From contig JAZQCH010000008.1 in NCBI GenBank assembly GCA_045546195.1, positions 7,481 to 71,480 of the forward strand: a stretch of DNA of 64,000 nt, written 5' to 3'. The position numbers and the translations under genes were made by a program. This document shows, in pieces, positions 14,529 to 60,573 of this stretch (the stretch's first letter is position 1; each line of letters starts with the position of its first letter). This DNA comes from Candidatus Enterousia sp. Lineage in GTDB: Bacteria; Pseudomonadota; Alphaproteobacteria; Rs-D84. The notes beneath the pieces are model-generated. The model searched no databases, was not told where the DNA came from, and was given only the letters and a program-made list of their open reading frames with translations.

Positions 14529-14598
14529 AAAATCCCCGCCGACGTCCACCCACGCAAACGTTCGTTTGCGCGGGGCCCGGTTGTCGGCGGGGTTTTTT
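14527..14598 (+). repeat. Terminator hairpin carrying a conserved palindromic core (family copy 1 of 4)
   Basis: Outer stem CCCCGCCGAC/GTCGGCGGGG plus T-run. Inner core TCCACCCACGCAAACGTTCGTTTGCGCGGGGCCCGG recurs at 16921, 47463 and 51130. Confidence 0.8.
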
Positions 14599-14646
14599 AA
14601 TATGAAAAATATCATTGCGAAAAATCGCGCAAAGTGCTAAAATATA

Positions 14647-14780
14647 TGGCATAGAGCAGAAAAAACAATGCCGAAAAAAAAGGGACGATTAGATTCGGCA
14701 TAATTCTACAAAGTAATTTCCCAGATTTTCGCATAATTTGACTCCCCATTATTTGCCTAAAAAAAACGTCGGTTTGGGTG
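14647..14780 (+). promoter_or_regulatory. Conserved 5' module, copy A (upstream region plus first codons of the 14738 ORF)
   Basis: 14671-14780 aligns ungapped to 27593-27702 with 4 differences in 110 nt. Hairpin TGCCGAA-N18-TTCGGCA, two A8 tracts. A possible promoter TTGCGA-N17-TAAAAT sits at 14615-14643. Confidence 0.7.
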
Positions 14781-16054
14781 CGGCAATGCCTGCGTTTGCG
14801 GATACATTTCCATCAAACGGATATATGTTGGAAAACAAGACCTATGTCAATGCGGCAACACAACAAAACATTGGCGTGTATGACGGCACGGTGACCGCAA
14901 CCGCGGAATACGAAGATATCCTGTATCAAATTGGTGCGGGAATGTACCTGCCCGCGGGGTCGGTTGATGCGGAACAATGCCCCGCCAACAGTTATTGCCC
15001 GGGTTTGACGGACGCAACATACAACGAAAGCGCGGCCCAGGGTGCAACATCGTGCCCGTCGGGTTATCCAAATTCCGCCGCGGGCGCGTCGTCAAACACG
15101 CAATGCTATACCACATGTACGGTAAATTCGGCGAATATTGAACATGCAACGGCGGTGGCTGGTAATGATTATTACAACACCGACGCAGATACATGTTCCG
15201 CCACCGCGTGTGAAAACGGATATCATGTAAATGAAACAACGGGGATTGTCGAACAAACACCATTGATTGATGTTGATTATACCGTGGCGGGTAATGGTTG
15301 GGGGTATATCAGTGCCGACGGCAGCAAAACCTCTAAGGCCGATACATATGGCCTGACTGAATACAATACATGGGCGTCGAAATTTGGTTATGGTGTTGTG
15401 TATGGTCGCGCCAGTTGCCAATCAACACTGCATGACCCCGGCCTTGAATATATAATGGCGAATCAAAGTGGGGTGCTGAACGCGACAATGTCGCCGGATC
15501 AGGTTCGTTCGGATTTAACACCGATTGTTGGTGTGGCCAAGGCAAATTATTTTGCGGACATTGTTGCTGGCATTGCCGATGGTACCAAGGGCGAAGAAGA
15601 TTTCTGGGACGCCGTGTCTGTTGTATTTGGGAAGTTCAAGGATGCATTGTTCAGCACAACGGACACGGGTCAACATTGTTATTGCCAAATGACGGGGTTT
15701 AAATCGGGTTCGTCGTCTGTTGTTGACATTGCGTCGGCCCCGTGGGTGCTCTTCGGCGGCTACGACTCGGCGGACAAATGCGCGAACAGTTGTGCGAACA
15801 GTTGTGCATCCTACCTGCAGGGCGGTGGCACGTTTCATCGCGGGTTCCGTGGGGCGATGTACGGTGCGTTGGATTTTGTCGCCGGTGGCACATGCGCAGC
15901 GAACGAAATCACAATTAACTGGACGGACGCAACGGACGAAGATATTGCCGCAAACAACGCCGGTATGTGTACATACGGTGGTGATATCCGCACACCGGTC
16001 GCAGCCATGGAAAAACCGGGCAAAACGTTTGTTGGGTGGAAATTCAGCAAGTAA
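14738..16054 (+). CDS. Cys-rich secreted protein (family member 2), start uncertain
   Basis: The TTG start gives [21 protein letters not shown] as a weak signal peptide; an alternative ATG is at 14786. GVYDG..YED..Y..G.YLP..CPANSYCPG is shared with 16278. The C-terminal ..TINWTD..CTYGGDIRTPVAAMEKPGKTFVGWKF resembles the Listeria-Bacteroides repeat. Confidence 0.6.
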   Translation: MTPHYLPKKNVGLGAAMPAFADTFPSNGYMLENKTYVNAATQQNIGVYDGTVTATAEYEDILYQIGAGMYLPAGSVDAEQCPANSYCPGLTDATYNESAAQGATSCPSGYPNSAAGASSNTQCYTTCTVNSANIEHATAVAGNDYYNTDADTCSATACENGYHVNETTGIVEQTPLIDVDYTVAGNGWGYISADGSKTSKADTYGLTEYNTWASKFGYGVVYGRASCQSTLHDPGLEYIMANQSGVLNATMSPDQVRSDLTPIVGVAKANYFADIVAGIADGTKGEEDFWDAVSVVFGKFKDALFSTTDTGQHCYCQMTGFKSGSSSVVDIASAPWVLFGGYDSADKCANSCANSCASYLQGGGTFHRGFRGAMYGALDFVAGGTCAANEITINWTDATDEDIAANNAGMCTYGGDIRTPVAAMEKPGKTFVGWKFSK

Positions 16055-16143: not shown

Positions 16144-16256
16144 CCTTTGTCATTCCGTGGCTGGACCACGGAACCCAGGTAATGCGCGCAAAGCGCGCGC
16201 AAATAATAAAGATTTTATGACCTGGGTCCCGCGGTCCAGCCGCGGGATGACAAAGG
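16144..16256. repeat. Composite palindrome: two inverted 37-bp units, each itself a hairpin
   Basis: CCTTTGTCATTCCGTGGCTGGACCACGGAACCCAGGT (16144-16180) versus the reverse complement of 16220-16256: 33/37 identical. The 4 differences are two compensatory pairs inside the unit hairpin. Confidence 0.85.
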
Positions 16257-16277: not shown

Positions 16278-16922
16278 TTGGTGCGGTGGCGCGTGATTTT
16301 ATTATCGGCAATGCCGATAACAATGAACTGTTTCGCGGGGACGGATATAATCTTTGCCCCCGGCGCGGTCATACCAAACACATGCGTATTTAACAACACC
16401 GGCGTGTATGACGGTGCGTTTGTTATGGTACCGGTGTACGAAGATACGATATACACATGTGAACGCGGATACTATTTACCAATGGGGTTAGAGGTCTGCG
16501 CCATATGCCCCGAAAACAGTTATTGCCCCGGCGGGGAATACACATATTCTGAAACCGATGATACGGGTGTTAACCCATGTCCCGACGGCAGTGTTGCGCC
16601 CATTGGCATGTGGGACGCCGCACAATGCGGTCGCAAATTACACATCAGCGATGTGTATATCTATTTGCGTCGCGCGAAACAATCTGCGCCGTCGTTACAC
16701 ATTGATGTTGACGGTGACGGTACGGCGGATTACTTTGCGAATGCGACGACATACGATGTTGCGATGAACAAAGACACCGACCGTCGTTTGCGGATAAAAA
16801 TGGGTGATGTTGTGTATTCGGTTCACGACGACACGATTGACGGCACGGCATCAATGCCACGCGTCACACCGACAACCGAACCCGCCGAATCCACTGAACC
16901 CGTGGACGAACAATCACAATAA
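16278..16922 (+). CDS. Cys-rich secreted protein (family member 3)
   Basis: TTG/GTG start. NTGVYDGAFVMVPVYEDTIYTCERGYYLP..VCAICPENSYCPGG is homologous to the N-terminal module of 14738-16054. Confidence 0.6.
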   Translation: MVRWRVILLSAMPITMNCFAGTDIIFAPGAVIPNTCVFNNTGVYDGAFVMVPVYEDTIYTCERGYYLPMGLEVCAICPENSYCPGGEYTYSETDDTGVNPCPDGSVAPIGMWDAAQCGRKLHISDVYIYLRRAKQSAPSLHIDVDGDGTADYFANATTYDVAMNKDTDRRLRIKMGDVVYSVHDDTIDGTASMPRVTPTTEPAESTEPVDEQSQ

Positions 16923-16987
16923 AAATCCCGCCGATGTCCACCCACGCAAACATTCGTTTGCGCGGGGCCCGGATGCGGGATTTTTTA
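16921..16987. repeat. Terminator hairpin with conserved core (copy 2 of 4), between convergent genes
   Basis: AATCCCGC..GTCCACCCACGCAAACATTCGTTTGCGCGGGGCCCGG..GCGGGATTTTTT. Confidence 0.8.
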
Positions 16988-17542
16988 TTCGCTTAATGCC
17001 GCGATAATTTCGGCGAAGTTATCGGACGCGTCGCCGGCGGCGTTGATTTCACTGAATTTTATGCCGGGGGCGTTGCGCAACCAATTAACGGCGGGCATTG
17101 TGATGTGCTGAAAATTTTCCAGGCGATGACGTATGATATCCATTGTGGCATCGTCGGCGCGTTTTGTGCCGTCGCGGACGCGTTTGTGGATGCGGGTAAT
17201 CAATGTTGCGTCATCGGTCGCTAAATACAGGATATGAATATCAAATTTGTCGGCATAGTTTTGAACCAGCCATTTTGCCTGGCCAATTGTGCGGGGAAAG
17301 CCATCCAGAATCATATCGTGGTCTGTGATTTTCTGGGCCATTAAATCACATACTAATTTATCCGGCACCAGGTTGCCCGCCGATATTAATTTTCCAATCT
17401 GGGAATCGGCCGATTCGGCGCGAAGCAGGGCGCCGGCTTCGATATGTTTGTATGGGTGGCGCGCCATTAACATGCGTGAAAATGTCCCCTTGCCAACGCC
17501 GGGGCCACCCATCATGACGATAATTTGTTTTTTGTTTTTCAT
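16985..17542 (-). CDS. adk: Adenylate kinase (short form)
   Basis: P-loop MMGGPGVGKGT, 185 aa, ..DGFPRT..Q motifs. Confidence 0.9.
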   Translation of the reverse strand: MKNKKQIIVMMGGPGVGKGTFSRMLMARHPYKHIEAGALLRAESADSQIGKLISAGNLVPDKLVCDLMAQKITDHDMILDGFPRTIGQAKWLVQNYADKFDIHILYLATDDATLITRIHKRVRDGTKRADDATMDIIRHRLENFQHITMPAVNWLRNAPGIKFSEINAAGDASDNFAEIIAALSE

Positions 17543-19497: not shown

Positions 19498-20577
19498 TCA
19501 ATCGATTTGAACAGGTATAATTGTTTGACGCTTGGTCGTGTCCAGCGCATGATACTGGAACGGGACGGTTGAAAAGTCTATGGATTTTATGTCAATGCTG
19601 CGAATTGTGCGGTTGTACATGGTGTGATAATATATCGTCATGTTTGTTAGGTCGGTCGCAACTGTCCACTGGGTCGCAGACGGCATATTGTTTGGGGCGG
19701 CGCCAACCGCAAACTGAACCCCCAATGGTACATCAAAGTTATTCAGCAGATGAAATGCCTGGTTCACGGTATCCATGGCGGTTGGCTGTTCCAATGAATA
19801 TGTTTTCAAGAATGCCGCACGAACAAATCGCGACGGTGGGGTAAAGTCCCCCGGCAGGCCCAGAAACCCAGCCCCCGAACCAAACGCCCGCAGGTCAATT
19901 GGGCCGAAGTTGCTTGGGCCTGCGCCGCCAGGGTGTAAATTTACATAGTTGTTCAGGTTGGTTGTTTGCCATGGGAATCCGGGTGCGTTGGTCAAAACGC
20001 CGATTTCATTTTCATAAAAGTTTGGACGGCCATCCACGATTTCCAAGACAACCTGGCGACCAGATGGTTCAGTAATGCGCCAGTGTACGGTTGATGCAGA
20101 TGGGTCTATGTTGATAATGCGCACATCGTTGATGGCGGCTTTGACCTGGTCGATGGTGGAAAATCGAGACAGTATCCATGATACAACCTGGAAATCGGCC
20201 AGTGAAATGTCTTGGTCGGATTCATTATATGGTTTGTATTCGCCATAGTTCGGAAAATAGAACAGGGCGGCGGATAAACCTGCTTCGTTCGTGCCATCAA
20301 CCACAAATTCAGGCTGTTCAACCGCCATGCCAACATAACCGTAAAGTGTTGTGTATGACAGACCGTTCATTGTCCCGTCGGGCAGTAATGATTGCATCGC
20401 GTGACCGCGTGGAACAATGGTATAAATGTTGTTCATTTCTGTGCCAGACCAATCAATAGTTCGTGCGACGATGGTTGCCCCGTCTTTGGATTTAAGTGTT
20501 ATGCCGGTACATGCCGTGGCAGATTGTATCAATGTCAGGCACGCAATCAATGCCCCCAGTATTTTTATGTGTGTCAT
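19498..20577 (-). CDS. Choloylglycine hydrolase / penicillin V acylase family Ntn-hydrolase
   Basis: ATG at 20577 gives signal peptide ..LIACLTLIQSATA followed by the nucleophile Cys in CTGITLKSKDGATIVARTIDW. Confidence 0.75.
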   Translation of the reverse strand: MTHIKILGALIACLTLIQSATACTGITLKSKDGATIVARTIDWSGTEMNNIYTIVPRGHAMQSLLPDGTMNGLSYTTLYGYVGMAVEQPEFVVDGTNEAGLSAALFYFPNYGEYKPYNESDQDISLADFQVVSWILSRFSTIDQVKAAINDVRIINIDPSASTVHWRITEPSGRQVVLEIVDGRPNFYENEIGVLTNAPGFPWQTTNLNNYVNLHPGGAGPSNFGPIDLRAFGSGAGFLGLPGDFTPPSRFVRAAFLKTYSLEQPTAMDTVNQAFHLLNNFDVPLGVQFAVGAAPNNMPSATQWTVATDLTNMTIYYHTMYNRTIRSIDIKSIDFSTVPFQYHALDTTKRQTIIPVQID

Positions 20578-20702
20578 GTGCGCTTTGCCCCCTTTGGTTG
20601 GATATATTATTGATGTTTTTGCCCAATAATTCACTAGGGGTGATTTCATAAAAATATTTTGATTGATTTTTATTTTTTATCGTTATATAATGCGCGACGC
20701 AT

Positions 20703-20924: not shown

Positions 20925-21096
20925 ATTTATTTGTATATCGAGGCACCCAGCTGCGGCCGCCCAAAAATTCAAACGCCCCGTGTGGGCGCTTTATTTTTTT
21001 GTGATTACAGAAATAAATTTTTATTGAATAAAAAAATATGTGTGCTAAGTTGAATATAATCATATTTGTAGGAATTATTTGACGAAAGGAGAAGTC

Positions 21097-24000
21097 ATGT
21101 CCAATACAAAACATTTGGCGGATTTGTTGAAAGTCTGCAGTATTTTGCCAGCCTTGGCAATTATGCCCGCAATGGCGGAAGAATATACCGTGGTGTCGGA
21201 AACAAAAATAGCCGAAATAGAAACTATATCAGGCGGTCATTCATGGTTGGATGCTTCTACAGCTTCAGGTAACCAGTCTGTTTGGTTTATCAAAGATGGA
21301 GATGTGACTGTTTTGTCTGAGGCAGTATTTGCAAATAACAGGGCAGATTCGGGTATTTTTTCTACATCATCAACGGCACCATCTTCTTTGACTTTGAATC
21401 CCGGGGTTGTATTTGAAAATAATACCGTTCGTTTTGATGGTGGGGCGGTTGCTAATTATAATACTTTGAATGCAAATGGTGTGACGTTCCGTAAAAATAC
21501 GGCACAGACTGATTTTGAAAATGATACAACCCCAATGGGTGGTGGTGCGTTGGCATTGGGTTCTGAATCAAAGACGATGATTCAGAATAGTATATTTAGT
21601 CAGAATGAGTCAAAGTATCATGGTGGTGCCATTGCAATGCGTGGACCAAATGATGGCGATAATTCGGCCGCTGATTTAGATATTATTGATTCTGAATTCA
21701 GAGGGAATATTGCTGCACAAAATGGTGGGGCGATTTATTCAACATTCTATGACAGTGAAAATGTCAAAGATTCTGTATATATTGAAGATAATGAATTCGT
21801 TGCAAATACAGCTGTTAATGGTGGCGCGATTTATAATGAAGGATTAGCAGATCGCAGTGATAATGTTGCCGCAATGAAGGTTATTGATTCAGAATTTGTT
21901 GGTAATATCGTAACGAATTATGGTGGCGCAATTTATAATGGCAGTAAATTGGTATTGGAAGATTCAGAGTTTAGCAAGAACGACGCGTATGTTGGTGGGG
22001 CTATGTTCTTGGCCAAGGGGTCGGATACGACAATTAAAAATTCTGAATTTGATTCGAATACCGCGGATTTTGGTGGTGCTATTTATACGTCAACGGCAAT
22101 TAAAAATGTTGATATTTCAGATTCTGAATTTACAAATAATAGCGCATTGGGTGCAGGTGCCGCTGGTATTTTTTACAAAGGTACATTGAACAATGTTTTG
22201 TTTAGTGGGAATAAAGCAACAGATGCAACCGATGATGGCGCGGGTGCATTGTTCTTGGGGGCGTTGTCGCAGGTGCAGTTGAATAATGTTGACTTTGTTA
22301 ACAATACTTCGGCGGCAATGGGTGGTGCAATCGCAATGCGCGGCGTACACGAAGGTAATAACAAGGATGCAAAACTGGATATAATCGGCGGTAGTTTTAC
22401 AGGTAATACTGCCGCAGCAGAAGGTGGTGCAATCTTTAGTACATTCTATGATAGTGAAAATGTTAAGGATTCGGTGTATATCAAGGGAACGGAATTTACA
22501 AAGAATTCTGCGGAAAGAGGTGGCGCGATTTACACCGAAGGCAAAGCTGATTTGGGTGGTGGATTGGCGTCTATGAAAATCGAAGGCGCAAAGTTCACAG
22601 AAAATACAGCCATGGCAGGAGGCGGTGCAATTCATAATTTAAGTACGCTGACGATTGAAAATAGCGATTTTTCAGGAAATAAATCTATCAGTGGTAATGG
22701 TGATGGTGGGGCGATTTATACGAACACCGGGGCACTGACGCTGAAAAATGTAGATTTCGAGGATAACTTTGTGACCGCTAATGCCCAAGGCGATATGGGG
22801 TATGGCGGTGCGATTTTCGCCCAAGGCGGAATCATTGATATCCAAGGCGGTGAATATGAAAAGAATCATGCGTTGACCGGTGGGGCAATGTATGTATCTG
22901 GCAAGGCAACATCTGTAAATATTGAAAATGTTGAATTTGAAGGAAACTGGGCGTCTGATATTGGTGCGCTGGGTATCTTTGGCAAAAATGTGACATTAAC
23001 TAATTTGATGTTTACAGACAACTATACCACGGGTCAGTACAAGGATTTTGGCTTTAATGACGGTGGTGGCGCGTTGTTCTTTGGGGCGACCGCCCAGGCG
23101 GTTTTAGATAAGGGAACATTTGTTTCAAATGAATCCGCAGGTGTGGGGGGCGCAATCGCAACACGCAGCCCGGATAAGGGTGATAACAGTGCGGCAAAGT
23201 TAGATATTAAGAATTCTACGTTCCGTGAAAATGTCGCAGCAACACAAGGTGGGGCGATTTATACTGCGTTCCATAACAGTAAAGAAGCGATAGATAATGT
23301 TTATTTGGCGGATTCTGTGTTTGTCGCAAATAAGGCAAACGAAGGTGGTGCCATCTATAACGAAGGGTTGGCGGATCGTGGCGACAACTTTGCGTCTATT
23401 TATATGACCGGTGTGACATTTAAAGATAATGTTGCATCTGTTAATGGTGGCGCAGTATTTAATGGCGCAGGTGGTACAGTCAACTTGGCCGGTATAAATG
23501 TGTTCAGTGGTAATGTGGCCCATGGATTGGCAAATGATATCCATAATATGGGTACATTAAATATCACGGGTGGTACAACCACATTGGATGGTGGTGTGAC
23601 GGGTACTGGTACATTTACGTTGGCATCGGGCGCAGAACTTGATATTGCTACGGCCGCGATTAAACAGGGGACAATCAACCTGGATGGTACAGTTGTGGCA
23701 TCGTTGTTGAACGATTCAGCACGCGGTGGTTCGTATGGGCGATTCATCGGTGATGTGCAGGTTGGCGACAACGCAATGTTTAATCTGAATGTTGGGGCTG
23801 TGGGTACCTATAATATCTGGGATGGTAAAATCGTCAAGGCCGACCAGGTGTCCGTTGGTGATATCTATGAAATCGCAGGTATTGATGTAAATGGTGTCAA
23901 GATTGTGACCAAGTCTGTTGATGAAATCGCAGAAACAGTTGGTGTCACAACCCAGGCGGCGGGCGCAGTCGCAGGTTTGGCAAATTCACACAGTGGCAAG

Positions 24001-24987
24001 GCGCACCAGGTGTCATTGGCATTACAGGATGCGTTGAACAGTGGTGATATTGCCACAGTTGAAGAAGAAGCCCAGAAACTGAATCCAACAGATAAGCCTG
24101 TGGCCCAGGCGGCGGCATCTTCGGTTCAGAACCAGGTTCTGGTGCTGACAGCGGGGCGTATGGCGGGCGGTGTTTCCGTCGGGCGTGCCGGTGGTGATGA
24201 AAAGACACAGGAAAATGGCTTCTGGATTCAGGGATTGTTTAATAAGTCAAAGTTCGGTGGCGAATTCCATGGATACACGCGTGGGGTTGCGTTGGGTGCC
24301 GATACTCTGATTGACAGAAAATGGACAATCGGTGGTGGGTTGGCATTTAATAACAGTGATGTTCATGCCGACGATTTACATACTGATATCGACAGCAAGA
24401 CCCTGTTCCTGTATGGCCAGTACAAACCAAACAATTGGTTTGTGAACGCAACGGCGACATATAGCATGTCTGAATACACAGATAATAAAGTGTTTATTGG
24501 TGGTGTTGATGACAGTTATACATATGATGTCGATGCGTATGGTGCCCAGGTTATGACTGGATATGATTTCGCGCCGGGTATTACAACCGAAGCGGGTGTG
24601 CGTTATCTGCATGTCGCCCAGGATGGATATACCGACAGTATGAACATTACGACGGTCAAAGCGTTGGATACAGATTTCCTGACGGGGGTTGCGGGTGTGA
24701 AATATGCGTTCGCAATCGAAAACGATTGGGCAATCCAGTTGCGCCCAGAACTGCGTGCGGCGATGACATACGATATCATCAGCGATGATGCGATGGCAAC
24801 CGTTGTTATGCCGGGTGTCGCATCGTACAAAGTTGATGTAGAACGTCTGAGCCGTATGGGTGGTGAATTCGGTATCGGGTTGACCGCACTGTACAAGGGC
24901 GTGGAAGTGTCACTGGTGTATGATTTGGATTTACATCGTGATTATACTTCACAGACGGGGATGATTAAATTCCGTGGACGCTTCTAA
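21097..24987 (+). CDS. Autotransporter with polymorphic-outer-membrane-protein (Pmp) type GGAI/FxxN repeats
   Basis: AGGAG precedes ATG 21097. Signal peptide ..ILPALAIMPAMA. Dozens of GGAIY / F.GN / F..N motifs. The C-terminal ~280 aa is beta-barrel-like and ends ..KFRGRF. Confidence 0.85.
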   Translation: MSNTKHLADLLKVCSILPALAIMPAMAEEYTVVSETKIAEIETISGGHSWLDASTASGNQSVWFIKDGDVTVLSEAVFANNRADSGIFSTSSTAPSSLTLNPGVVFENNTVRFDGGAVANYNTLNANGVTFRKNTAQTDFENDTTPMGGGALALGSESKTMIQNSIFSQNESKYHGGAIAMRGPNDGDNSAADLDIIDSEFRGNIAAQNGGAIYSTFYDSENVKDSVYIEDNEFVANTAVNGGAIYNEGLADRSDNVAAMKVIDSEFVGNIVTNYGGAIYNGSKLVLEDSEFSKNDAYVGGAMFLAKGSDTTIKNSEFDSNTADFGGAIYTSTAIKNVDISDSEFTNNSALGAGAAGIFYKGTLNNVLFSGNKATDATDDGAGALFLGALSQVQLNNVDFVNNTSAAMGGAIAMRGVHEGNNKDAKLDIIGGSFTGNTAAAEGGAIFSTFYDSENVKDSVYIKGTEFTKNSAERGGAIYTEGKADLGGGLASMKIEGAKFTENTAMAGGGAIHNLSTLTIENSDFSGNKSISGNGDGGAIYTNTGALTLKNVDFEDNFVTANAQGDMGYGGAIFAQGGIIDIQGGEYEKNHALTGGAMYVSGKATSVNIENVEFEGNWASDIGALGIFGKNVTLTNLMFTDNYTTGQYKDFGFNDGGGALFFGATAQAVLDKGTFVSNESAGVGGAIATRSPDKGDNSAAKLDIKNSTFRENVAATQGGAIYTAFHNSKEAIDNVYLADSVFVANKANEGGAIYNEGLADRGDNFASIYMTGVTFKDNVASVNGGAVFNGAGGTVNLAGINVFSGNVAHGLANDIHNMGTLNITGGTTTLDGGVTGTGTFTLASGAELDIATAAIKQGTINLDGTVVASLLNDSARGGSYGRFIGDVQVGDNAMFNLNVGAVGTYNIWDGKIVKADQVSVGDIYEIAGIDVNGVKIVTKSVDEIAETVGVTTQAAGAVAGLANSHSGKAHQVSLALQDALNSGDIATVEEEAQKLNPTDKPVAQAAASSVQNQVLVLTAGRMAGGVSVGRAGGDEKTQENGFWIQGLFNKSKFGGEFHGYTRGVALGADTLIDRKWTIGGGLAFNNSDVHADDLHTDIDSKTLFLYGQYKPNNWFVNATATYSMSEYTDNKVFIGGVDDSYTYDVDAYGAQVMTGYDFAPGITTEAGVRYLHVAQDGYTDSMNITTVKALDTDFLTGVAGVKYAFAIENDWAIQLRPELRAAMTYDIISDDAMATVVMPGVASYKVDVERLSRMGGEFGIGLTALYKGVEVSLVYDLDLHRDYTSQTGMIKFRGRF

Positions 24988-24996
24988 ATAAAATCT

Positions 24997-25244
24997 AATG
25001 GCATATCTATGAACGGTGCCGTCCCCTCATGTAGCGGTATGTACACTACGGGGACGGCACTGTCCATATCTATACCATTATCTTTTATTTTAAAAAATGC
25101 TATGGCATATCTGCGGGCGGGGGCGACATCTTATGTAGCGTTTGTACACTACGATGCCGCCCCCATCCCGTATCTATACCATTATCTTTTATTTAACGCC
25201 AAGGAGTAGGGTAGTGTTTGTACACCGATGTTGTCGGGATTATT
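24997..25244. repeat. Palindromic-unit array 1 (2 full units plus 1 degenerate)
   Basis: Unit: AATGGCATATCTATG, left arm, TCATGTAGCG..TGTACACTAC, right arm, CCATATCTATACCATT. Loop box GTACACTAC occurs at 25041 and 25144, with a degenerate GTACACC at 25220. Lies between convergent genes. Confidence 0.85.
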
Positions 25245-27477: not shown

Positions 27478-27511
27478 AAAAAAACGCCCCCCAAATCGGG
27501 GGGCTGTTTTT
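27478..27511 (+). terminator. Intrinsic terminator after the FKBP gene
   Basis: AAAAAAACGCCCCCC-AAATC-GGGGGGCTGTTTTT. Confidence 0.75.
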
Positions 27512-27568
27512 GTGTGGGGTTATTCAAAAAAATATATGGACAAAAATTGCGCAAATCGGTATCATGTG

Positions 27569-27702
27569 TGGTATAGAAGGAAAAAAAGACTGCCTAAAAA
27601 AAAGGGACGATTAGATTAGGCATAATTCTACAAAGTAATTTCCCAGATTTTCGCATATTTTGACTCCCCATTGTTTGCCTAAAAAAAACGTCGGTTTGGG
27701 TG
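27569..27702 (+). promoter_or_regulatory. Conserved 5' module, copy B
   Basis: Same block as 14647-14780. The hairpin here is TGCCTAA-N18-TTAGGCA, a compensatory change relative to copy A. The block starts at TGGTATAGA. Confidence 0.7.
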
Positions 27703-28913
27703 TGTTGTTGATGCCACTGGGCGCGGCGATGGCTGATATGGTAACAGATTGCGCCGATTGTTATAAGTGCGTTTCGTTTGCGGGTGATGGTGGTTGTAAT
27801 AGGTGCGAGTATGATGAAGCCTATTGTATGTTGTCTGATATGTTGTATAATGAAAATGCTTGTTCCTATTTTGAAGGCTTGTATCGTACAGTCGCCGAGG
27901 ATGCCAATTGTCCTGTTGCGAACGGGGAATACAATGCTTTGATACAAAATGCATGTGGCAGATATCATTCGGGTAATTACAGTGATTGTGTTAATTATTT
28001 GGGTAATTACAATTCGATGTTCTTTACGGCGATATGTGACCATATGGGGGATATTTATACCGCAAGTTTGGCGTCGAATATTGTCGATTGTACAATCCGT
28101 GATGACGCAGCAGTGGAAGAAGATATTGTCATGCCCACGGATTTATGGTATCCGGGGCAGTATTGTTATAATGACACAGATCGTTATATTATGTATCGGT
28201 GTGACTGTGAACGTGATTCGTCGATAAGCCAGGCTGTGTCCAGTCAGGCGGTTTGTATGGAGGTGTATGGCACAGAAAATGAAATTCGTGGGAATTGTTA
28301 TCTGGGGGCTGTAAGTGAAGACGTGTATTTGGTGACGAACAGTGCGGGTGAAACGCCGTATTGTGGTACCACAAGCGATATGTTGTCGTCCAGGTGGGCG
28401 GATTATGTCTGCGCAGATACCCAAGACCCAATGCAAACGCCAGAACAGTTGTGTGCGTGTCGTACAACCTGGTCGGATTGGGGAAATGATGGGGTGGATT
28501 TTGGCGTTATTCGTGAACGGCCAGAATATGCCTGTGGTCAGGTTGATTGGTCAACGCGGTGCCAGGATACGTCGCATAATTTGTCGGGGCTGTATATGGC
28601 CAGTGCGAAAAACTATAACTGTACGCGGACTGGGGATACACAGTATCAGTGTTCGTGCCCGTCGGCTTATTACACGATAACCACCGCCCAACCCCAGGGA
28701 AGCGATAGATGTAACTGTAACCGGTGTCCGTGTGTTGTGGACAAAGATGGAATTCAACGATGTGGCGCGGTTACTGGGGCAGGGTTGGAACAGGATTCGG
28801 AATATGGGTATTTTATGGGGGCGGAAATAACGCATTGCGGGTTGTCGCGCGGAACATTTGCCGATGATTCAGGTGAATTTCAATACACGGACTATTGCCG
28901 GTGGCAAAATTAG
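27660..28913 (+). CDS. Cys-rich secreted protein (family member 4), start uncertain
   Basis: The TTG start gives [25 protein letters not shown] as signal peptide. About 10 percent Cys. C-terminal ..[21 protein letters not shown] module. Confidence 0.6.
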
Positions 28914-33412: not shown

Positions 33413-33530
33413 CAGTGCCTAATTAAAACGGTGGTTTGGATTCGGCACAAAATATGATTGACTTTTCGCCCAAAATGCGACAAAATTCAGCAAAAGAAGT
33501 GCCGAATCCAAACCACCGTTTGGGTGCGTC
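33413..33530 (+). promoter_or_regulatory. Rearranged relative of the conserved 5' module (copy C) with a perfect 23-bp inverted repeat
   Basis: CAGTGCCTAATTAAAACGGTGGTTTGGATTCGGCAC aligns to module hairpin 1 of copies A/B. AAACGGTGGTTTGGATTCGGCAC (33426-33448) is the exact reverse complement of 33499-33521, with a 50-nt spacer. It ends in GTTTGGGTGCG like A/B. Confidence 0.75.
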
Positions 33531-33556
33531 GCGTATAGAAGAAAGGGAGAGCAAAT

Positions 33557-34669
33557 ATGCGGTTTTTTAGCAAAAATATTGATTTGTACAACGTGGGTCA
33601 ATGGGCGCGTCGTGCGGGGGTGCGTATGATGGGGTTGGTTGTTGCGTTGTTTGCGTCCGCGCGCGCAGATGCCGCCGAAGGAATTATGGGGACCGCATGC
33701 CCGGGTTGTGTGACATATGTTGGAACGGTTTGTGATTCTGGTTCAACATACGGTGCATATGATGATGGTGTTGGTGTTGGTACACAGTATGCGTATTGTA
33801 TTGATGCCAATATTATGGATGCATATGATGCGCGTATTTATGACGCGGATTGCGTGGCACTGTTGAAAAGTTGGGGGATGTGTGACGCGATGTCGTCGGG
33901 GTCGCAAAGTATGGGGTTGGAAATGTTGTATAATCCGGACCTGAATTGTACAACTGCGTCCGAATGGGCGGGATATTATGTTGAGTATGGGTTCAACACG
34001 TATGAGCATAATCGTGATATATCGGGGAATGTGGAATTTTATGAAATGGCTGCGGACGAGCCTTATATTTGTTGTGATGTCAGCGAAGGTGTTGGTTCGG
34101 CACCATGTTGTGTTTCTAGTTCTTCGTGTTTAGAAGATTATGCGTATTGTGGATATTGTAGTGGGCAAATGTATTCTTTGTTGGTTTATGACAGTGGTGA
34201 TATGGGTAATGCCCAAACGTGTACAGATGCGTTTGAAGCGTACTTTAACAGCGAAGATAATTCAACCGGATGGTGCGATGGTTCCGGTATTATGGTCGAG
34301 GCCACCGGCGCCATGTTAATTGCCCAGGCGTGTTGGGGCGCCACCACAATACGCCAGGCCAGTTCGTACGGTATGCAATCATATTGCGGTGTTGTGATTA
34401 CGGGATGTCGCGCCGACAATGGATATTGGTTTAATGGCGATGTTGCCACTCCGAATGATTTTATTGCTGATGGTTCGGCGCATTCGTGTAGTGCGTGTCC
34501 GGCGCCGGTCAGTGGTTATGACAGTGGACATAATTTCAGCATCAATGGCGGAACGGGTATTGGTGTTGAATCATGCTATGCCACGGCGGGAACGGCGACT
34601 ATATCTTTGACAGATACTACGGGGACATATCAGGAAACAATCACCGCGGATTGCCCGTACACGGAATAA
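33557..34669 (+). CDS. Cys-rich secreted protein (family member 5)
   Basis: AGGGAGA SD. Signal peptide ..RMMGLVVALFASARADA. C-terminal ..CSACPAPV..ESCYATAG..GTYQETITADCPY module. Confidence 0.7.
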   Translation: MRFFSKNIDLYNVGQWARRAGVRMMGLVVALFASARADAAEGIMGTACPGCVTYVGTVCDSGSTYGAYDDGVGVGTQYAYCIDANIMDAYDARIYDADCVALLKSWGMCDAMSSGSQSMGLEMLYNPDLNCTTASEWAGYYVEYGFNTYEHNRDISGNVEFYEMAADEPYICCDVSEGVGSAPCCVSSSSCLEDYAYCGYCSGQMYSLLVYDSGDMGNAQTCTDAFEAYFNSEDNSTGWCDGSGIMVEATGAMLIAQACWGATTIRQASSYGMQSYCGVVITGCRADNGYWFNGDVATPNDFIADGSAHSCSACPAPVSGYDSGHNFSINGGTGIGVESCYATAGTATISLTDTTGTYQETITADCPYTE

Positions 34670-40358: not shown

Positions 40359-40426
40359 AAAAATCCTTTTACAAGAGTAATAGGATAACTATTTCACAAT
40401 AAAAATCAATCTAAATAAAATAATGA

Positions 40427-40732
40427 CATATCTATGGGCGGTGTTGTCCCCTCATGTAGCGTCTGTACACTACGGGGACAACACTACCCATATCTATGCC
40501 ATTATTCCCCACTGTTTTGTGGGGTGGGGTAGCGTTTGTACACTACGGTTGTGGGTTTAACCGTATCTATCCCATTATTTTTCTTTTTTATTTGTTGGCG
40601 CGCTCATGTATCGTTTGTACACTACGCTTGCCAACAACGGCGCATCTATGCCATTATTCCCCATTTTTTTGTGGGGGTGGGGTAGCGTTTGTACACTACG
40701 GGGACAACACTACCCATATCTATGCCATTATT
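40427..40732. repeat. Palindromic-unit array 2 (4 units, period 73-79 bp)
   Basis: Alternating conserved boxes (C)ATATCTATGCCATTATT and GTAGCGTTTGTACACTACG, with the loop box at 40465, 40538, 40617 and 40691. The variable segments between them are partly self-complementary. Confidence 0.85.
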
Positions 40733-40740
40733 CCTTTGGT

Positions 40741-47455: not shown

Positions 47456-47462
47456 TTTAATT

Positions 47463-47530
47463 AAAAATCCCCCTGTGTCCATCCACGCAAATATTTGTTT
47501 GTGCGGGGGCCGACTGGGGGGATTTTTTTT
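47463..47530 (+). repeat. Terminator hairpin with conserved core (copy 3 of 4)
   Basis: AAAAATCCCCC..TCCATCCACGCAAATATTTGTTTGTGCGGGGGCCGA..GGGGGGATTTTTTTT. Confidence 0.8.
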
Positions 47531-59931: not shown

Positions 59932-60573
59932 ATGATTTATGGCTATATACGTGTGTCGACAGACCATCAAACAACAGAAAATCAACGCTTTGAAATCAAG
60001 CGGTTTTGCGAAAAGCAAGATTTGGTCATAGATTGCTGGATAGAAGAAACAATTTCATCAACCAAGGATTTAAGCAAGCGTAAGTTAGGGCGTCTGTTGC
60101 GCCGTATTCAAAAAGATGACCTGATTATTGCGTCTGAATTGTCGCGATTGGGGCGAAATTTATTACAGGTGATGAGTATTTTACACCATTGTATGGATGT
60201 TGGGGCAAAAATATGGACAATCAAGGATAATTACAGGCTGGGGTCTGATATTACTTCGAAAGTTTTGGCGTTCGCTTTTGGGTTGTCCGCGGAAATTGAA
60301 CGAAATCTGATTTCGCAACGAACCAAAGAAGCATTGGCGCGCGTCAAGGCCGAAGGAAAGCGTATAGGGCGACCCCGTGGCAGTTCAAATGCACGCAAAC
60401 TGTCTGGGCGTGAAAAGTATATTGCCCAAAAATTGGCAGACGGGCGCACTAAATATGAAATCGCGCACAGATTGCGTGTTCATCGCGATACGCTGAACCG
60501 GTTTATTGAAAAATATGAACTGGGGGCTGATGAAGCAGACGGACAATCAAAAACACCAGTGTTAAAACTGTAA
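59932..60573 (+). CDS. Serine recombinase (resolvase/invertase family)
   Basis: AAGGAG SD. MIYGYIRVSTDHQ..NQ catalytic-Ser motif, ..SRLGRN.., ..ERNLISQRTKEAL.. and a C-terminal HTH. Confidence 0.9.
   Translation: MIYGYIRVSTDHQTTENQRFEIKRFCEKQDLVIDCWIEETISSTKDLSKRKLGRLLRRIQKDDLIIASELSRLGRNLLQVMSILHHCMDVGAKIWTIKDNYRLGSDITSKVLAFAFGLSAEIERNLISQRTKEALARVKAEGKRIGRPRGSSNARKLSGREKYIAQKLADGRTKYEIAHRLRVHRDTLNRFIEKYELGADEADGQSKTPVLKL

What the first reader, a model, noticed from the sequence alone, without database searches (positions are those of the whole stretch)
14647..14780. Near-identical ~134-bp 5' module joined to unrelated Cys-rich ORFs (copy A; copy B at 27569-27702)
By manual alignment, 14671-14780 and 27593-27702 are ungapped with 4 differences in 110 nt. 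Identity collapses immediately after GGTTTGGGTG, and the two downstream proteins share little beyond being Cys-rich. Two of the four differences form a compensatory pair in a hairpin: A has TGCCGAA..TTCGGCA and B has TGCCTAA..TTAGGCA, with an identical 18-nt loop AAAAAAGGGACGATTAGA. The block contains a diverged internal direct repeat (TGCCKAAAAAAAA-SG..G.TT.G). If the TTG at 14738/27660 is the start, the second copy of this repeat encodes the basic n-region LPKKNVGLG of a weak signal peptide. An A8 homopolymer then lies inside the first 10 codons, making it a slipped-strand frameshift candidate. A second A8 tract sits in the hairpin loop. A stripped version (GGATAGAA...GTTTTGGTGCGG) precedes the 16278 gene, and a rearranged version lies at 33413-33530. 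A conserved 5' expression module fused to divergent surface-protein bodies is the architecture of Mycoplasma vsp/vsa/vlp-type variable families. Here that comparison is only an analogy.
Basis: partly seen in the sequence, partly recalled or inferred. Interest (0 to 1): 0.78.

Follow-up and report, generated by a model that had tools for sequence, protein, structure and literature searches.

The report
Flip-switches that turn surface-protein genes on
The shared "5' module" is a tiny piece of DNA (about 80 bases) that an enzyme can flip; in one orientation it gives the downstream secreted-protein gene its ribosome-binding site and start codon, so this uncultured gut bacterium can probably switch these proteins on and off.

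Summary
14671-14780 and 27593-27702 differ at 4 of 110 positions, and similarity ends at GGTTTGGGTG.

The module is a site-specific DNA inversion switch. In related metagenome contigs whose flanks are 99.98-100% identical, the 79 nt between GACG (14684-87) and CGTC (14767-70) is exactly reverse-complemented. The same holds for copy B. At copy C (33416-33529) it holds in contigs that are about 97% identical.

Flipping A or B places GGGGAG, then 7 nt, then ATG and 11 codons (MRKSGKLLCRI) in frame with the gene, downstream of a fixed promoter. In the window both A and B are in the orientation without a ribosome-binding site, which is probably OFF.

Copy C instead carries a promoter inside the flipped segment. 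In the window it faces the gene.

All six sites have the Gin/Hin crossover layout AAA-NN-[NN]-NN-TTT. The central dinucleotide is GA in A and B, and GT in C.

The window encodes a "master DNA invertase Mpi family" serine recombinase (59932-60573). This was the only recombinase found.

The A8 tracts and the "compensatory hairpin" are recombinase half-sites. They are not slippage tracts or an RNA structure.

I classify this as a new variant of a known kind.

The parts
14615..14643 (+). Fixed promoter of gene A (TTGCGA-17-TAAAAT), outside and upstream of the invertible segment
   Evidence: Promoter scan. The position is conserved in relatives (TTGCGA..TAGAAT in L006, TTGTCA..TATAAC in L029, TTGCCT..TATAAT in L032). 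Function is inferred.
14669..14700 (+). Switch A, left recombination site (32 bp, TGCC...GGCA dyad). Core is AAA GG [GA] CG ATT at 14679-14690; the inferred crossover dinucleotide is GA at 14684-14685
   Evidence: Sequence. The breakpoint of the inversion seen in L009-L012 falls at GACG. The layout matches the gix/hix core given in PMC3985619 Table 1.
14688..14766 (.). Switch A, invertible segment (79 nt between the GACG and CGTC cores). Its minus strand carries GGGGAG-7 nt-ATG CGA AAA TCT GGG AAA TTA CTT TGT AGA ATT. In the window it points away from gene A (OFF-like state)
   Evidence: The exact reverse complement is found in L009-L012 in the same PFOR/142-aa gene context. In-silico inversion gives MRKSGKLLCRIMPNLIVGLGAAMPAFADTF, which is the N-terminus of homologues P0002 and P0005.
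14754..14785 (+). Switch A, right recombination site. Core is AAA CG [TC] GG TTT at 14764-14775; crossover TC at 14769-14770. The outer half (GGTTTGGGTGCGGCA) encodes GLGAA of the signal peptide
   Evidence: Similarity between A and B ends just after this site.
14738..16054 (+). Gene A: secreted Cys-rich protein (438-aa frame as read in the window orientation). It belongs to a large family in Alphaproteobacteria MAGs, and some members carry a Listeria-Bacteroides repeat (PF09479)
   Evidence: Orthologues without the switch have ordinary signal peptides (MKKRLFLTSLVAVG...).
27537..27565 (+). Fixed promoter of gene B (TGGACA-17-TATCAT, 10 of 12 matches)
   Evidence: It is preceded by a terminator at 27486-27504.
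27591..27622 (+). Switch B, left recombination site (crossover GA at 27606-27607)
27610..27688 (.). Switch B, invertible segment (79 nt), in the OFF-like orientation in the window
   Evidence: Reverse-complemented in L013, L014 and L044. L044 and L045 are 100% identical over 3333 nt next to the switch but have opposite orientations. The protein cluster of B holds both N-termini, [14 protein letters not shown] and MRKSGKLLCRIMPNLIVGLG.
27676..27707 (+). Switch B, right recombination site (crossover TC at 27691-27692)
27660..28913 (+). Gene B: secreted Cys-rich protein, unrelated in sequence to A
33416..33447 (+). Switch C, left site (AAA CG [GT] GG TTT at 33426-33437)
33449..33498 (.). Switch C, the part of the invertible segment whose orientation can be read (50 nt between perfect 23-nt inverted repeats 33426-33448 / 33499-33521). 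It contains the promoter TTGACT-17-CAAAAT (33458-33486), which faces gene C in the window (ON-like)
   Evidence: Reverse-complemented in L007 and L013. Promoter scan.
33500..33531 (+). Switch C, right site (AAA CC [AC] CG TTT at 33510-33521)
33557..34669 (+). Gene C: secreted Cys-rich protein with its own GGGAGAG ribosome-binding site and ATG downstream of the switch
59932..60573 (+). Candidate invertase: small serine recombinase (213 aa, catalytic GYIRVSTDHQ, C-terminal HTH) of the Mpi 'master DNA invertase' family
   Evidence: Pfam Resolvase 7e-32. NCBIfam NF009949 scores 309 bits against a cutoff of 272. Best solved relatives are Gin invertase structures 4m6f and 3uj3. Homologues at 75-89% identity occur in many Alphaproteobacteria MAGs, and one lies 4 kb from a B-like switch in L032. 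That it acts on these sites is inferred.

Best explanation
Copies A, B and C are three members of one family of very small invertible DNA switches (invertons). Each has two 32-bp sites of the Gin/Hin type, built as two half-sites (TGCCKAAnnnAAA..) around AAA-NN-[2-bp crossover]-NN-TTT. The two sites lie in inverted orientation with their centres 84-85 bp apart.

A serine DNA invertase most likely cuts both sites at the central dinucleotide and rejoins them, flipping the DNA in between. The best candidate is the Mpi-family enzyme encoded at 59932-60573.

In A and B the promoter is fixed upstream, and the flipped piece carries the ribosome-binding site, the ATG and the first 11 codons. In one orientation the gene reads GGGGAG-7 nt-ATG MRKSGKLLCRI-MPNLIVGLG..., a complete secretion signal joined to the gene body (ON). 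In the other orientation, the one in this window, the gene is left with no ribosome-binding site and only a TTG (OFF or very low).

In C the flipped piece carries a promoter instead, and in the window it points at the gene.

The near-identity of A and B up to GGTTTGGGTG exists because that stretch is the switch itself: enzyme-binding sites plus a short coding cassette. The gene bodies attached to it are unrelated.

Shown: the inversion, its breakpoints, the site architecture, and the presence of the recombinase gene. Inferred: which enzyme acts, the ON/OFF assignment, and switching within a single population.
For: Inversion observed directly:
- A: window versus L009-L012, in the same PFOR/142-aa context.
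- A-type switch at the clpX-tyrS locus: L018 and L020 are 99.975% identical over 8149 nt, followed by 87 nt that match 100% on the opposite strand.
- B: L044 and L045 are 100% identical over 3333 nt with the switch reversed. L013 and L014 are also reversed relative to the window.
- C: window versus L007 and L013.

Not an assembly artefact: in A and B only 4 bp (GACG/CGTC) are shared between the two breakpoints, so an assembler cannot create the inversion by collapsing a repeat.

Coding logic: the in-silico flipped state encodes MRKSGKLLCRIMPNLIVGLG... behind GGGGAG-7 nt-ATG. Gene callers found exactly this N-terminus on flipped contigs (P0002, P0005, P0125, P0131, P0133). Distant relatives keep an SD+ATG+short ORF on that strand although the DNA has diverged: L029 MRKSGKLLCKI, L032 MQKSGKFFWEI, L040 MGIFKFNITYRI.

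Geometry: the segment length is fixed at 79 nt for A/B-type and 80 nt for C across most lineages; it is 79 nt for C in L013 and 78 nt in the diverged L040/L041 variant.

Site architecture: all six sites read AAA-NN-NN-NN-(A/T)TT, as in gix (AAA CC GA GG TTT) and hix (PMC3985619 Table 1).

Enzyme: a serine recombinase of the Mpi family scores above the curated cutoff. No other recombinase was found in 39 other ORFs scanned or by a motif search of all ORFs.

Promoters: the predicted promoters lie outside the segment for A and B and inside it for C.
Against: - No read-level data were available, so mixed orientations within one sample (true phase variation) were not shown. Contig ends at the switch in L020 and L044 are only suggestive, and coverage of L044 is low.
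- No experiment links the Mpi-family enzyme to these sites. It lies 26-45 kb away, and the rest of the genome could encode other recombinases.
- The ON/OFF assignment rests on sequence logic. The window orientation still leaves an in-frame TTG (an ATG in L029) that could give some translation.
- Sites whose centres are 84-85 bp apart are very close together for a Hin/Gin-type synapse, and there is no room for a Fis-type enhancer. The reaction may therefore differ from the textbook one.
- The match to the published B. fragilis Mpi repeat ARACGTTCGTN is only partial (AAACGTCGGT).
Confidence: 0.85

Rival explanations
1. The module is a cis-acting RNA leader. A hairpin (TGCCKAA..TTMGGCA) maintained by compensatory changes regulates translation or stability of the downstream mRNAs.
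For: A and B differ by a G/T and C/A pair that keeps the 7-bp stem. The flipped state would form a strong 13-bp stem just upstream of the ribosome-binding site.
Against: There is no Rfam family at gathering score. The 'pair' is broken in L009-type, L029-type and L032-type switches. The arms are separated and re-paired with different partners when the DNA flips, which an RNA stem under selection would not tolerate. The dyad symmetry is explained by a dimeric recombinase site.
Confidence: 0.04
2. Phase variation occurs by slipped-strand mispairing in the A8 tract within the first codons (and/or the A8 in the upstream site).
For: Two A8 tracts are present, one of them inside the reading frame as read in the window.
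Against: Both tracts are A8 in about 30 independent contigs. The only variant is a substitution (A7T in L013, L014 and L045), not a length change. In L029-L032 the same positions read AATCTAAA/AATCTAAT. In the flipped state, neither tract lies in the coding region.
Confidence: 0.03
3. The opposite orientations are fixed strain differences left by rare past rearrangements or by a small mobile palindromic element (MITE/REPIN-like). They are not products of an active switch.
For: Each assembly shows one orientation. Copy C has MITE-like 23-nt terminal inverted repeats. The window holds other palindromic repeat families.
Against: Two pairs of contigs that are 99.98-100% identical next to the switch differ only by the flip. 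Both orientations recur at three separate loci and in several lineages. The elements sit only at the 5' ends of secreted-protein genes, at a fixed distance from a promoter. A conserved, intact Mpi-family invertase is present in every lineage where a long enough contig was available. Only three copies occur in 64 kb, and no target-site duplications were seen.
Confidence: 0.07

Closest known systems
Bacteroides fragilis Mpi and its dispersed invertible promoter regions
   Same: A single small serine invertase of the same NCBIfam equivalog family (NF009949). Several dispersed short invertible regions lie upstream of surface-molecule genes. The recombination repeats are hix-like with an ACGT-containing core (published repeat ARACGTTCGTN, as cited in PMC8375218; here AAACGTCGGT). 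Switch C is a classical invertible promoter.
   Different: The host is an uncultured alphaproteobacterium and the cargo is Cys-rich secreted proteins, not capsule loci. Switches A and B carry no promoter; they carry the ribosome-binding site, the start codon and 11 codons. The flipped segment is 79-80 nt, compared with the roughly 180-190 bp reported for Bacteroides promoters (PMC8375218). In A and B the two sites share only 4 contiguous bp.
Hin/Gin/Cin/Pin DNA invertases (hix/gix sites)
   Same: Best solved-structure relatives are Gin structures. Each site has two half-sites around AAA-NN-[2 bp]-NN-TTT, and the A/B crossover dinucleotide is GA, as listed for gix (PMC3985619 Table 1). The central dinucleotide is non-palindromic, which fixes the relative orientation of the sites.
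   Different: Hin and Gin flip segments of 1-3 kb that contain a Fis-bound enhancer (established knowledge; PMC3798978). Here the site centres are 84-85 bp apart and there is no room for an enhancer. Hin flips a promoter and Gin swaps C-terminal tail-fibre exons, whereas A and B flip a translation-start cassette.
Clostridioides difficile cwpV and flgB switches
   Same: The invertible element lies downstream of a fixed promoter, in the 5' leader, and acts after transcription initiation (PMC2784873).
   Different: Those switches use a tyrosine recombinase (RecV) and act through terminator formation or leader effects. They do not supply the ribosome-binding site and start codon.
'Partial intergenic' / gene-altering invertons (PhaVa and the Milman et al. 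screens)
   Same: One recombination site lies in the coding region and the other in the intergenic region, so inversion changes the encoded protein end (PMC10028968, PMC9881135).
   Different: The described cases are mostly long, shufflon-like exchanges of C-terminal or specificity domains, and they were found through inverted repeats of 22 bp or more (PMC9881135). A and B would not pass such a filter, and they swap the N-terminal start cassette against nothing.
Mycoplasma vsa/vsp/vpma and Ureaplasma mba inversion systems
   Same: Site-specific inversion decides whether a surface-protein body is joined to a 5' expression part with its signal peptide (PMC2268961, PMC3047005).
   Different: Those systems shuffle several silent gene bodies onto one expression site, use tyrosine (Xer-like) recombinases and encode lipoproteins. 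Here each gene has its own promoter and its own private switch.

Membership tests
Serine-invertase DNA inversion switch (inverton) | The same segment is found in both orientations in otherwise identical DNA | tested here: met
   L018/L020: 99.975% over 8149 nt plus 87 nt reversed. L044/L045: 100% over 3333 nt plus 87 nt reversed. Window versus L009, L013 and L007.
Serine-invertase DNA inversion switch (inverton) | Two inverted recombination sites, each with dyad half-sites around a 2-bp crossover | tested here: met
   All six sites read AAA-NN-NN-NN-(A/T)TT inside TGCC..GGCA dyads. The layout is that of gix/hix in PMC3985619. The exact cleavage position is inferred.
Serine-invertase DNA inversion switch (inverton) | A cognate small serine recombinase is encoded in the genome | tested here: met
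   Window 59932-60573: Resolvase plus HTH; Mpi family at 309 bits against a cutoff of 272. Activity on these sites was not tested.
Serine-invertase DNA inversion switch (inverton) | Both orientations coexist within one clonal population (phase variation) | not testable with these tools
   No sequencing reads were available. Contigs L020 and L044 end at the switch, which is only suggestive.
Mpi-controlled invertible promoters (Bacteroides type) | A promoter inside the invertible segment | tested here: not met
   Met for C (TTGACT-17-CAAAAT at 33458-33486). Not met for A and B, the subject of the finding: their promoters lie outside, and the segment carries SD+ATG instead.
Mpi-controlled invertible promoters (Bacteroides type) | Inverted repeats matching ARACGTTCGTN | tested here: inconclusive
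   A/B right site AAACGTCGGT matches 8 of 10 positions. C reads AAACCACCGT. The consensus was taken from PMC8375218; the original paper was not available.
Homopolymer slipped-strand phase variation | Length polymorphism of the tract among close relatives | tested here: not met
   A8 in all of about 30 contigs; one substitution variant; not a homopolymer in L029-L032.
Structured cis-regulatory RNA | Base pairs kept by compensatory change across relatives, or a match to a known family | tested here: not met
   No Rfam hit. The proposed pair is broken in three lineages.
Mycoplasma vsa/vsp-type shuffling | Several promoterless gene bodies that exchange one expression site | tested here: not met
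   A, B and C each have their own promoter and switch, and each stays with its own gene in all contigs.
MITE / REPIN-like mobile palindromic element | Many dispersed copies with terminal inverted repeats, and insertion polymorphism | tested here: not met
   Only three loci in 64 kb, all at the 5' ends of secreted-protein genes. A and B lack long terminal repeats.

The most novel reading that the evidence does not exclude
These are 'cryptic mini-invertons', a class in which an ~80-nt flip supplies or removes the ribosome-binding site, start codon and first codons of a secretion signal. The two recombination sites share only a 4-bp core, so repeat-based inverton finders cannot detect them. Because Mpi-family invertases at 75-89% identity occur in very many uncultured Alphaproteobacteria, such switches could be a widespread, so far unrecorded layer of phase variation. 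They would also show that a serine invertase can synapse sites only 84-85 bp apart without an enhancer.
Probability: 0.45. Interest if true: 0.72.

Novelty: new variant of a known kind. Interest (0 to 1): 0.62.

Why it matters
- It explains an otherwise puzzling pattern, identical 5' ends on unrelated genes, with a concrete and testable mechanism.
- It extends Mpi-type 'master invertase' control from Bacteroides to uncultured gut Alphaproteobacteria.
- The A/B design acts on translation and on the protein's N-terminus rather than on transcription.
- The A/B sites share so little inverted repeat that current genome-wide inverton screens would probably miss them, so phase variation may be under-counted.
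- Gene callers give these genes three or four different N-termini depending on orientation. This is an annotation problem and also a simple way to find more such switches.
- The very short, length-fixed segment is a natural test case for the minimal geometry of serine-invertase synapsis.

Tried and rejected
- The genome-contig scan with AAAAAACGTCGGTTTGGGTG found only chance hits (Actinotignum, Larkinella), so the source genome is not among the species representatives.
- The metagenome-contig scan with GGGACG-N78-81-CGTCGGTTTGGGTG gave 11 loci, of which only L040 and L041 are real relatives. The rest are high-GC chance matches.
- Look-up of P0002, a 78%-identical paralogue that appears to be on the window's own 96.5-kb contig and is in the flipped state, failed.
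- Pfam found nothing for proteins A, B, C and D.
- The Rfam gathering scan found only tRNAs.
- The original Mpi paper (PMC193581) is not held, so the Mpi repeat consensus is quoted second-hand.
- Literature searches for an inverton carrying a ribosome-binding site or start codon found no precedent. This is not proof that none exists.
- A leader peptide (MPKKKGRLDSA) and translational bypassing between the two TGCCKAAAAAAAA repeats were considered. Both were dropped once the inversion was seen.
- A promoter inside the A/B segment was considered. In the flipped state, the best -10-like hexamers have no usable -35, or lie after the ATG.

Full report
**1.

- 14671-14780 and 27593-27702 align without gaps and differ at four positions: 14673, 14696, 14736 and 14751.
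- blastn reports 121 nt at 95% identity, E 1e-51.
- The next 110 nt downstream are 24.5% identical, which is random. The 66 nt upstream are 67% identical.
- The downstream ORFs (14738..16054 and 27660..28913) have no Pfam match and are unrelated to each other.
- A motif scan finds the full arrangement (TGCCKAA ... TTMGGCA ... TGCCKAA) at exactly three places in the window: 14669, 27591 and 33416.
- The supposed stripped copy before 16278 is a 3-mismatch match at chance level.

**2. The key result: the module flips**

Homologues of protein A fall into groups by N-terminus:
- [15 protein letters not shown]..., as in the window;
- MRKSGKLLCRIMPNLIVGLG...;
- MPNLIVGLG...;
- in more distant orthologues, ordinary signal peptides such as MKKRLFLTSLVAVG....

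MRKSGKLLCRI is exactly the translation of the reverse complement of 14701-14753.

Fetching the DNA confirmed the inversion.
- In L009-L012 (same PFOR / 142-aa gene / gene A context), the 79 nt between GACG and CGTC are the exact reverse complement of window 14688-14766, apart from one SNP.
- For B, L013, L014 and L044 carry the reversed segment, while the window, L008, L015-L022 and L045 carry the window orientation.
- For C, the 50 nt between the perfect 23-nt repeats are reversed in L007 and L013.

Two comparisons are near-isogenic.
- L018 and L020 are 99.975% identical over 8149 nt, followed by 87 nt that match 100% on the opposite strand.
- L044 and L045 are 100% identical over 3333 nt with the switch reversed.

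In A and B the two breakpoints share only GACG/CGTC, so an assembler cannot have produced the flip by collapsing a repeat.

**3. Anatomy**

Each switch has a left and a right site of about 32 bp, bounded by TGCC...GGCA-like ends. At the centre, all six sites read AAA-NN-NN-NN-(A/T)TT:

| Site | Central sequence |
|---|---|
| A and B, left | AAA GG GA CG ATT |
| A and B, right | AAA CG TC GG TTT |
| C, left | AAA CG GT GG TTT |
| C, right | AAA CC AC CG TTT |

- This is the layout tabulated for gix (AAA CC GA GG TTT) and hix, with a central 2-bp crossover (PMC3985619 Table 1).
- By that analogy the crossover dinucleotide is GA/TC in A and B and GT/AC in C. The position is an inference, but it agrees with the observed breakpoints and with the centre of dyad symmetry.
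- The crossover centres are 85 bp apart in A and B, and 84 bp apart in C.
- The segment between the 4-bp cores is 79 nt in every A/B-type switch and 80 nt in C in the window and L007. It is 79 nt for C in L013 and 78 nt in the diverged L040 variant. This constancy holds across lineages whose inner sequence has diverged, which suggests a geometric constraint.

**4. What flipping does**

*Switches A and B*
- A sigma-70-like promoter lies upstream of the left site: 14615-14643 TTGCGA-17-TAAAAT and 27537-27565 TGGACA-17-TATCAT. Its position is conserved in relatives.
- In the orientation found in L009, L013, L020 and L044, the gene is preceded by GGGGAG, 7 nt, then ATG CGA AAA TCT GGG AAA TTA CTT TGT AGA ATT. 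This runs in frame through the right site into the gene, giving MRKSGKLLCRIMPNLIVGLG(AAMPAFA|DTF... or [11 protein letters not shown]|DMV...).
- In the predicted leader fold of that state, the ribosome-binding site and ATG are largely unpaired.
- In the window orientation there is no ribosome-binding site and only a TTG.
- More distant switches keep an SD+ATG+short ORF on that strand even though the nucleotides differ: L029 MRKSGKLLCKI, L032 MQKSGKFFWEI, L040 MGIFKFNITYRI.
- I therefore call the flipped state ON and the window state OFF. This is an inference from sequence.

*Switch C*
- The flipped piece holds TTGACT-17-CAAAAT (33458-33486), and gene C has its own GGGAGAG-ATG downstream.
- In the window the promoter faces the gene (ON-like); in L007 and L013 it faces away.

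One site family therefore serves two designs, a classical invertible promoter and an invertible translation-start cassette.

*Orientation tally in assembled contigs*

| Switch | OFF-like | ON-like |
|---|---|---|
| A at the PFOR locus | 1 | 4 |
| A-type at the clpX-tyrS locus | 8 | 1 |
| B | 11 | 3 |
| C | 2 | 1 |

In addition, all five contigs from distant lineages are OFF.

**5. The enzyme**

- A motif search of all ORFs of 100 aa or more found one serine-recombinase signature, GYIRVSTDHQ, in 59932..60573.
- It has a Resolvase domain (7e-32) plus a C-terminal HTH.
- Its best solved relatives are Gin invertase structures.
- It scores 309 bits against NCBIfam NF009949, 'master DNA invertase Mpi family serine-type recombinase', whose curated cutoff is 272.
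- Homologues at 75-89% identity are abundant in Alphaproteobacteria MAGs under the same name.
- The identical protein appears to be on the 71-kb contig that carries the A and B switches of L015.
- In L032 a homologue lies 4 kb from a B-like switch, in the same ssb / subtilase context.
- Thirty-nine other ORFs scanned with Pfam include no recombinase.
- In B. fragilis, Mpi inverts 13 dispersed regions (PMC4747536), and its repeats are given as ARACGTTCGTN (PMC8375218), close to AAACGTCGGT here.
- That this enzyme flips A, B and C is inferred, not shown.

**6.

- The 'hairpin with a compensatory pair' is the pair of outer half-site ends of the left site. The G/T and C/A correspondence is not kept in the L009, L029 or L032 lineages, and flipping re-pairs the arms with other partners.
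- The 'internal direct repeat' is the pair of left-hand half-sites of the two sites.
- The A8 tracts are half-site variants, reading AATCTAAA/AATCTAAT in L029-L032. They show no length variation.
- Identity 'collapses after GGTTTGGGTG' because that is the outer half of the right site.
- Beyond the right site, orthologues that lack the switch have ordinary signal peptides that align from about ..GxxxxPAFA onward. The switch therefore replaced the 5' end of an older signal sequence.
- A and B within one genome differ at 3 of 79 segment positions. This is fewer than between A and its orthologue in L029, judged by eye. The derived A8 half-sites are also shared by A and B in this lineage only. This points to concerted evolution or exchange between switches; I did not pursue it.

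**7. Comparison with known systems and novelty**

- The switches work like Mpi/Hin/Gin-type inversion switches and meet the defining features that could be tested here.
- The differences from described cases are:
  - the cargo of A and B (ribosome-binding site, start codon and N-terminal codons rather than a promoter or a C-terminal exon);
  - the very short, length-fixed segment;
  - the near absence of an inverted repeat;
  - the host clade.
- 'Partial intergenic' and gene-altering invertons are known (PMC10028968, PMC9881135). However, they are mostly long and shufflon-like, and were found through repeats of 22 bp or more.
- My literature searches found no described start-cassette inverton. 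That is weak negative evidence.
- I rate this as a new variant of a known kind.

**8. Limits**

- There is no read-level evidence, no expression data and no enzymology.
- Only 64 kb of the genome was seen.
- The identity of the host is known only as 'Alphaproteobacteria bacterium' MAGs.

Noticed in passing
window 14529-14600, 16921-16990, 47462-47530: A 55-70-nt nested-hairpin, terminator-like repeat (AAAATCCCCGCCGACGTCCACCCACGCAAAC..GTTTGCGCGGGG..) occurs three times. Two copies flank the promoter-switch-gene A-gene D cassette as direct repeats. In relatives L006-L008 and L015-L019 an A-D cassette sits instead between clpX and tyrS, a position that is empty in the window. The cassette therefore seems to move or to be duplicated.
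   Followed up: partly
window 24996-25194 and 40412-40740: A family of palindromic repeat units of about 75-105 nt (GTAGCG.TGTACACTACGGGGAC...CCATATCTAT.CCATTAT), with two copies after the autotransporter gene and four or five in tandem next to the ClpB-like gene. Its function is unknown.
   Followed up: no
window 16152-16248: A ~97-nt perfect-looking palindrome between genes A and D is called as a tRNA on both strands by ARAGORN (tRNA-Stop / tRNA-Leu) but not by Rfam, so it is probably a false tRNA call. Relative L007 has two related units here. It looks like a small repeated palindromic element.
   Followed up: no
window 27575-27590: The A-run in the leader of B just before the left site (GGAAAAAAAGAC) is A7 in the window, L013 and L045 but A8 in L008 and L015-L022. 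This is the only homopolymer near the switches that varies in length.
   Followed up: no
It was called with the flipped-state N-terminus MRKSGKLLCRIMPNLIVGLG. Its DNA could not be fetched.
   Followed up: partly
window 14640-14753, minus strand: In the window (OFF-like) orientation, the SD+ATG cassette of A points backwards and opens a ~40-codon frame (read by eye, not tool-checked) running toward the promoter. No promoter for it was seen, so it is probably meaningless.
   Followed up: no
window 21079-24987 and 19498-20649: A 1302-aa autotransporter with Chlamydia PMP repeats and a choloylglycine (bile-salt) hydrolase family gene, together with PFOR. These are consistent with an anaerobic, gut-associated lifestyle.
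   Followed up: no
L020 8131-8272 and L044 1-100: Two contigs end within or just after a switch that is in the rarer orientation. Assemblers break in this way when both orientations are present in the reads, but coverage of L044 is low.
   Followed up: no
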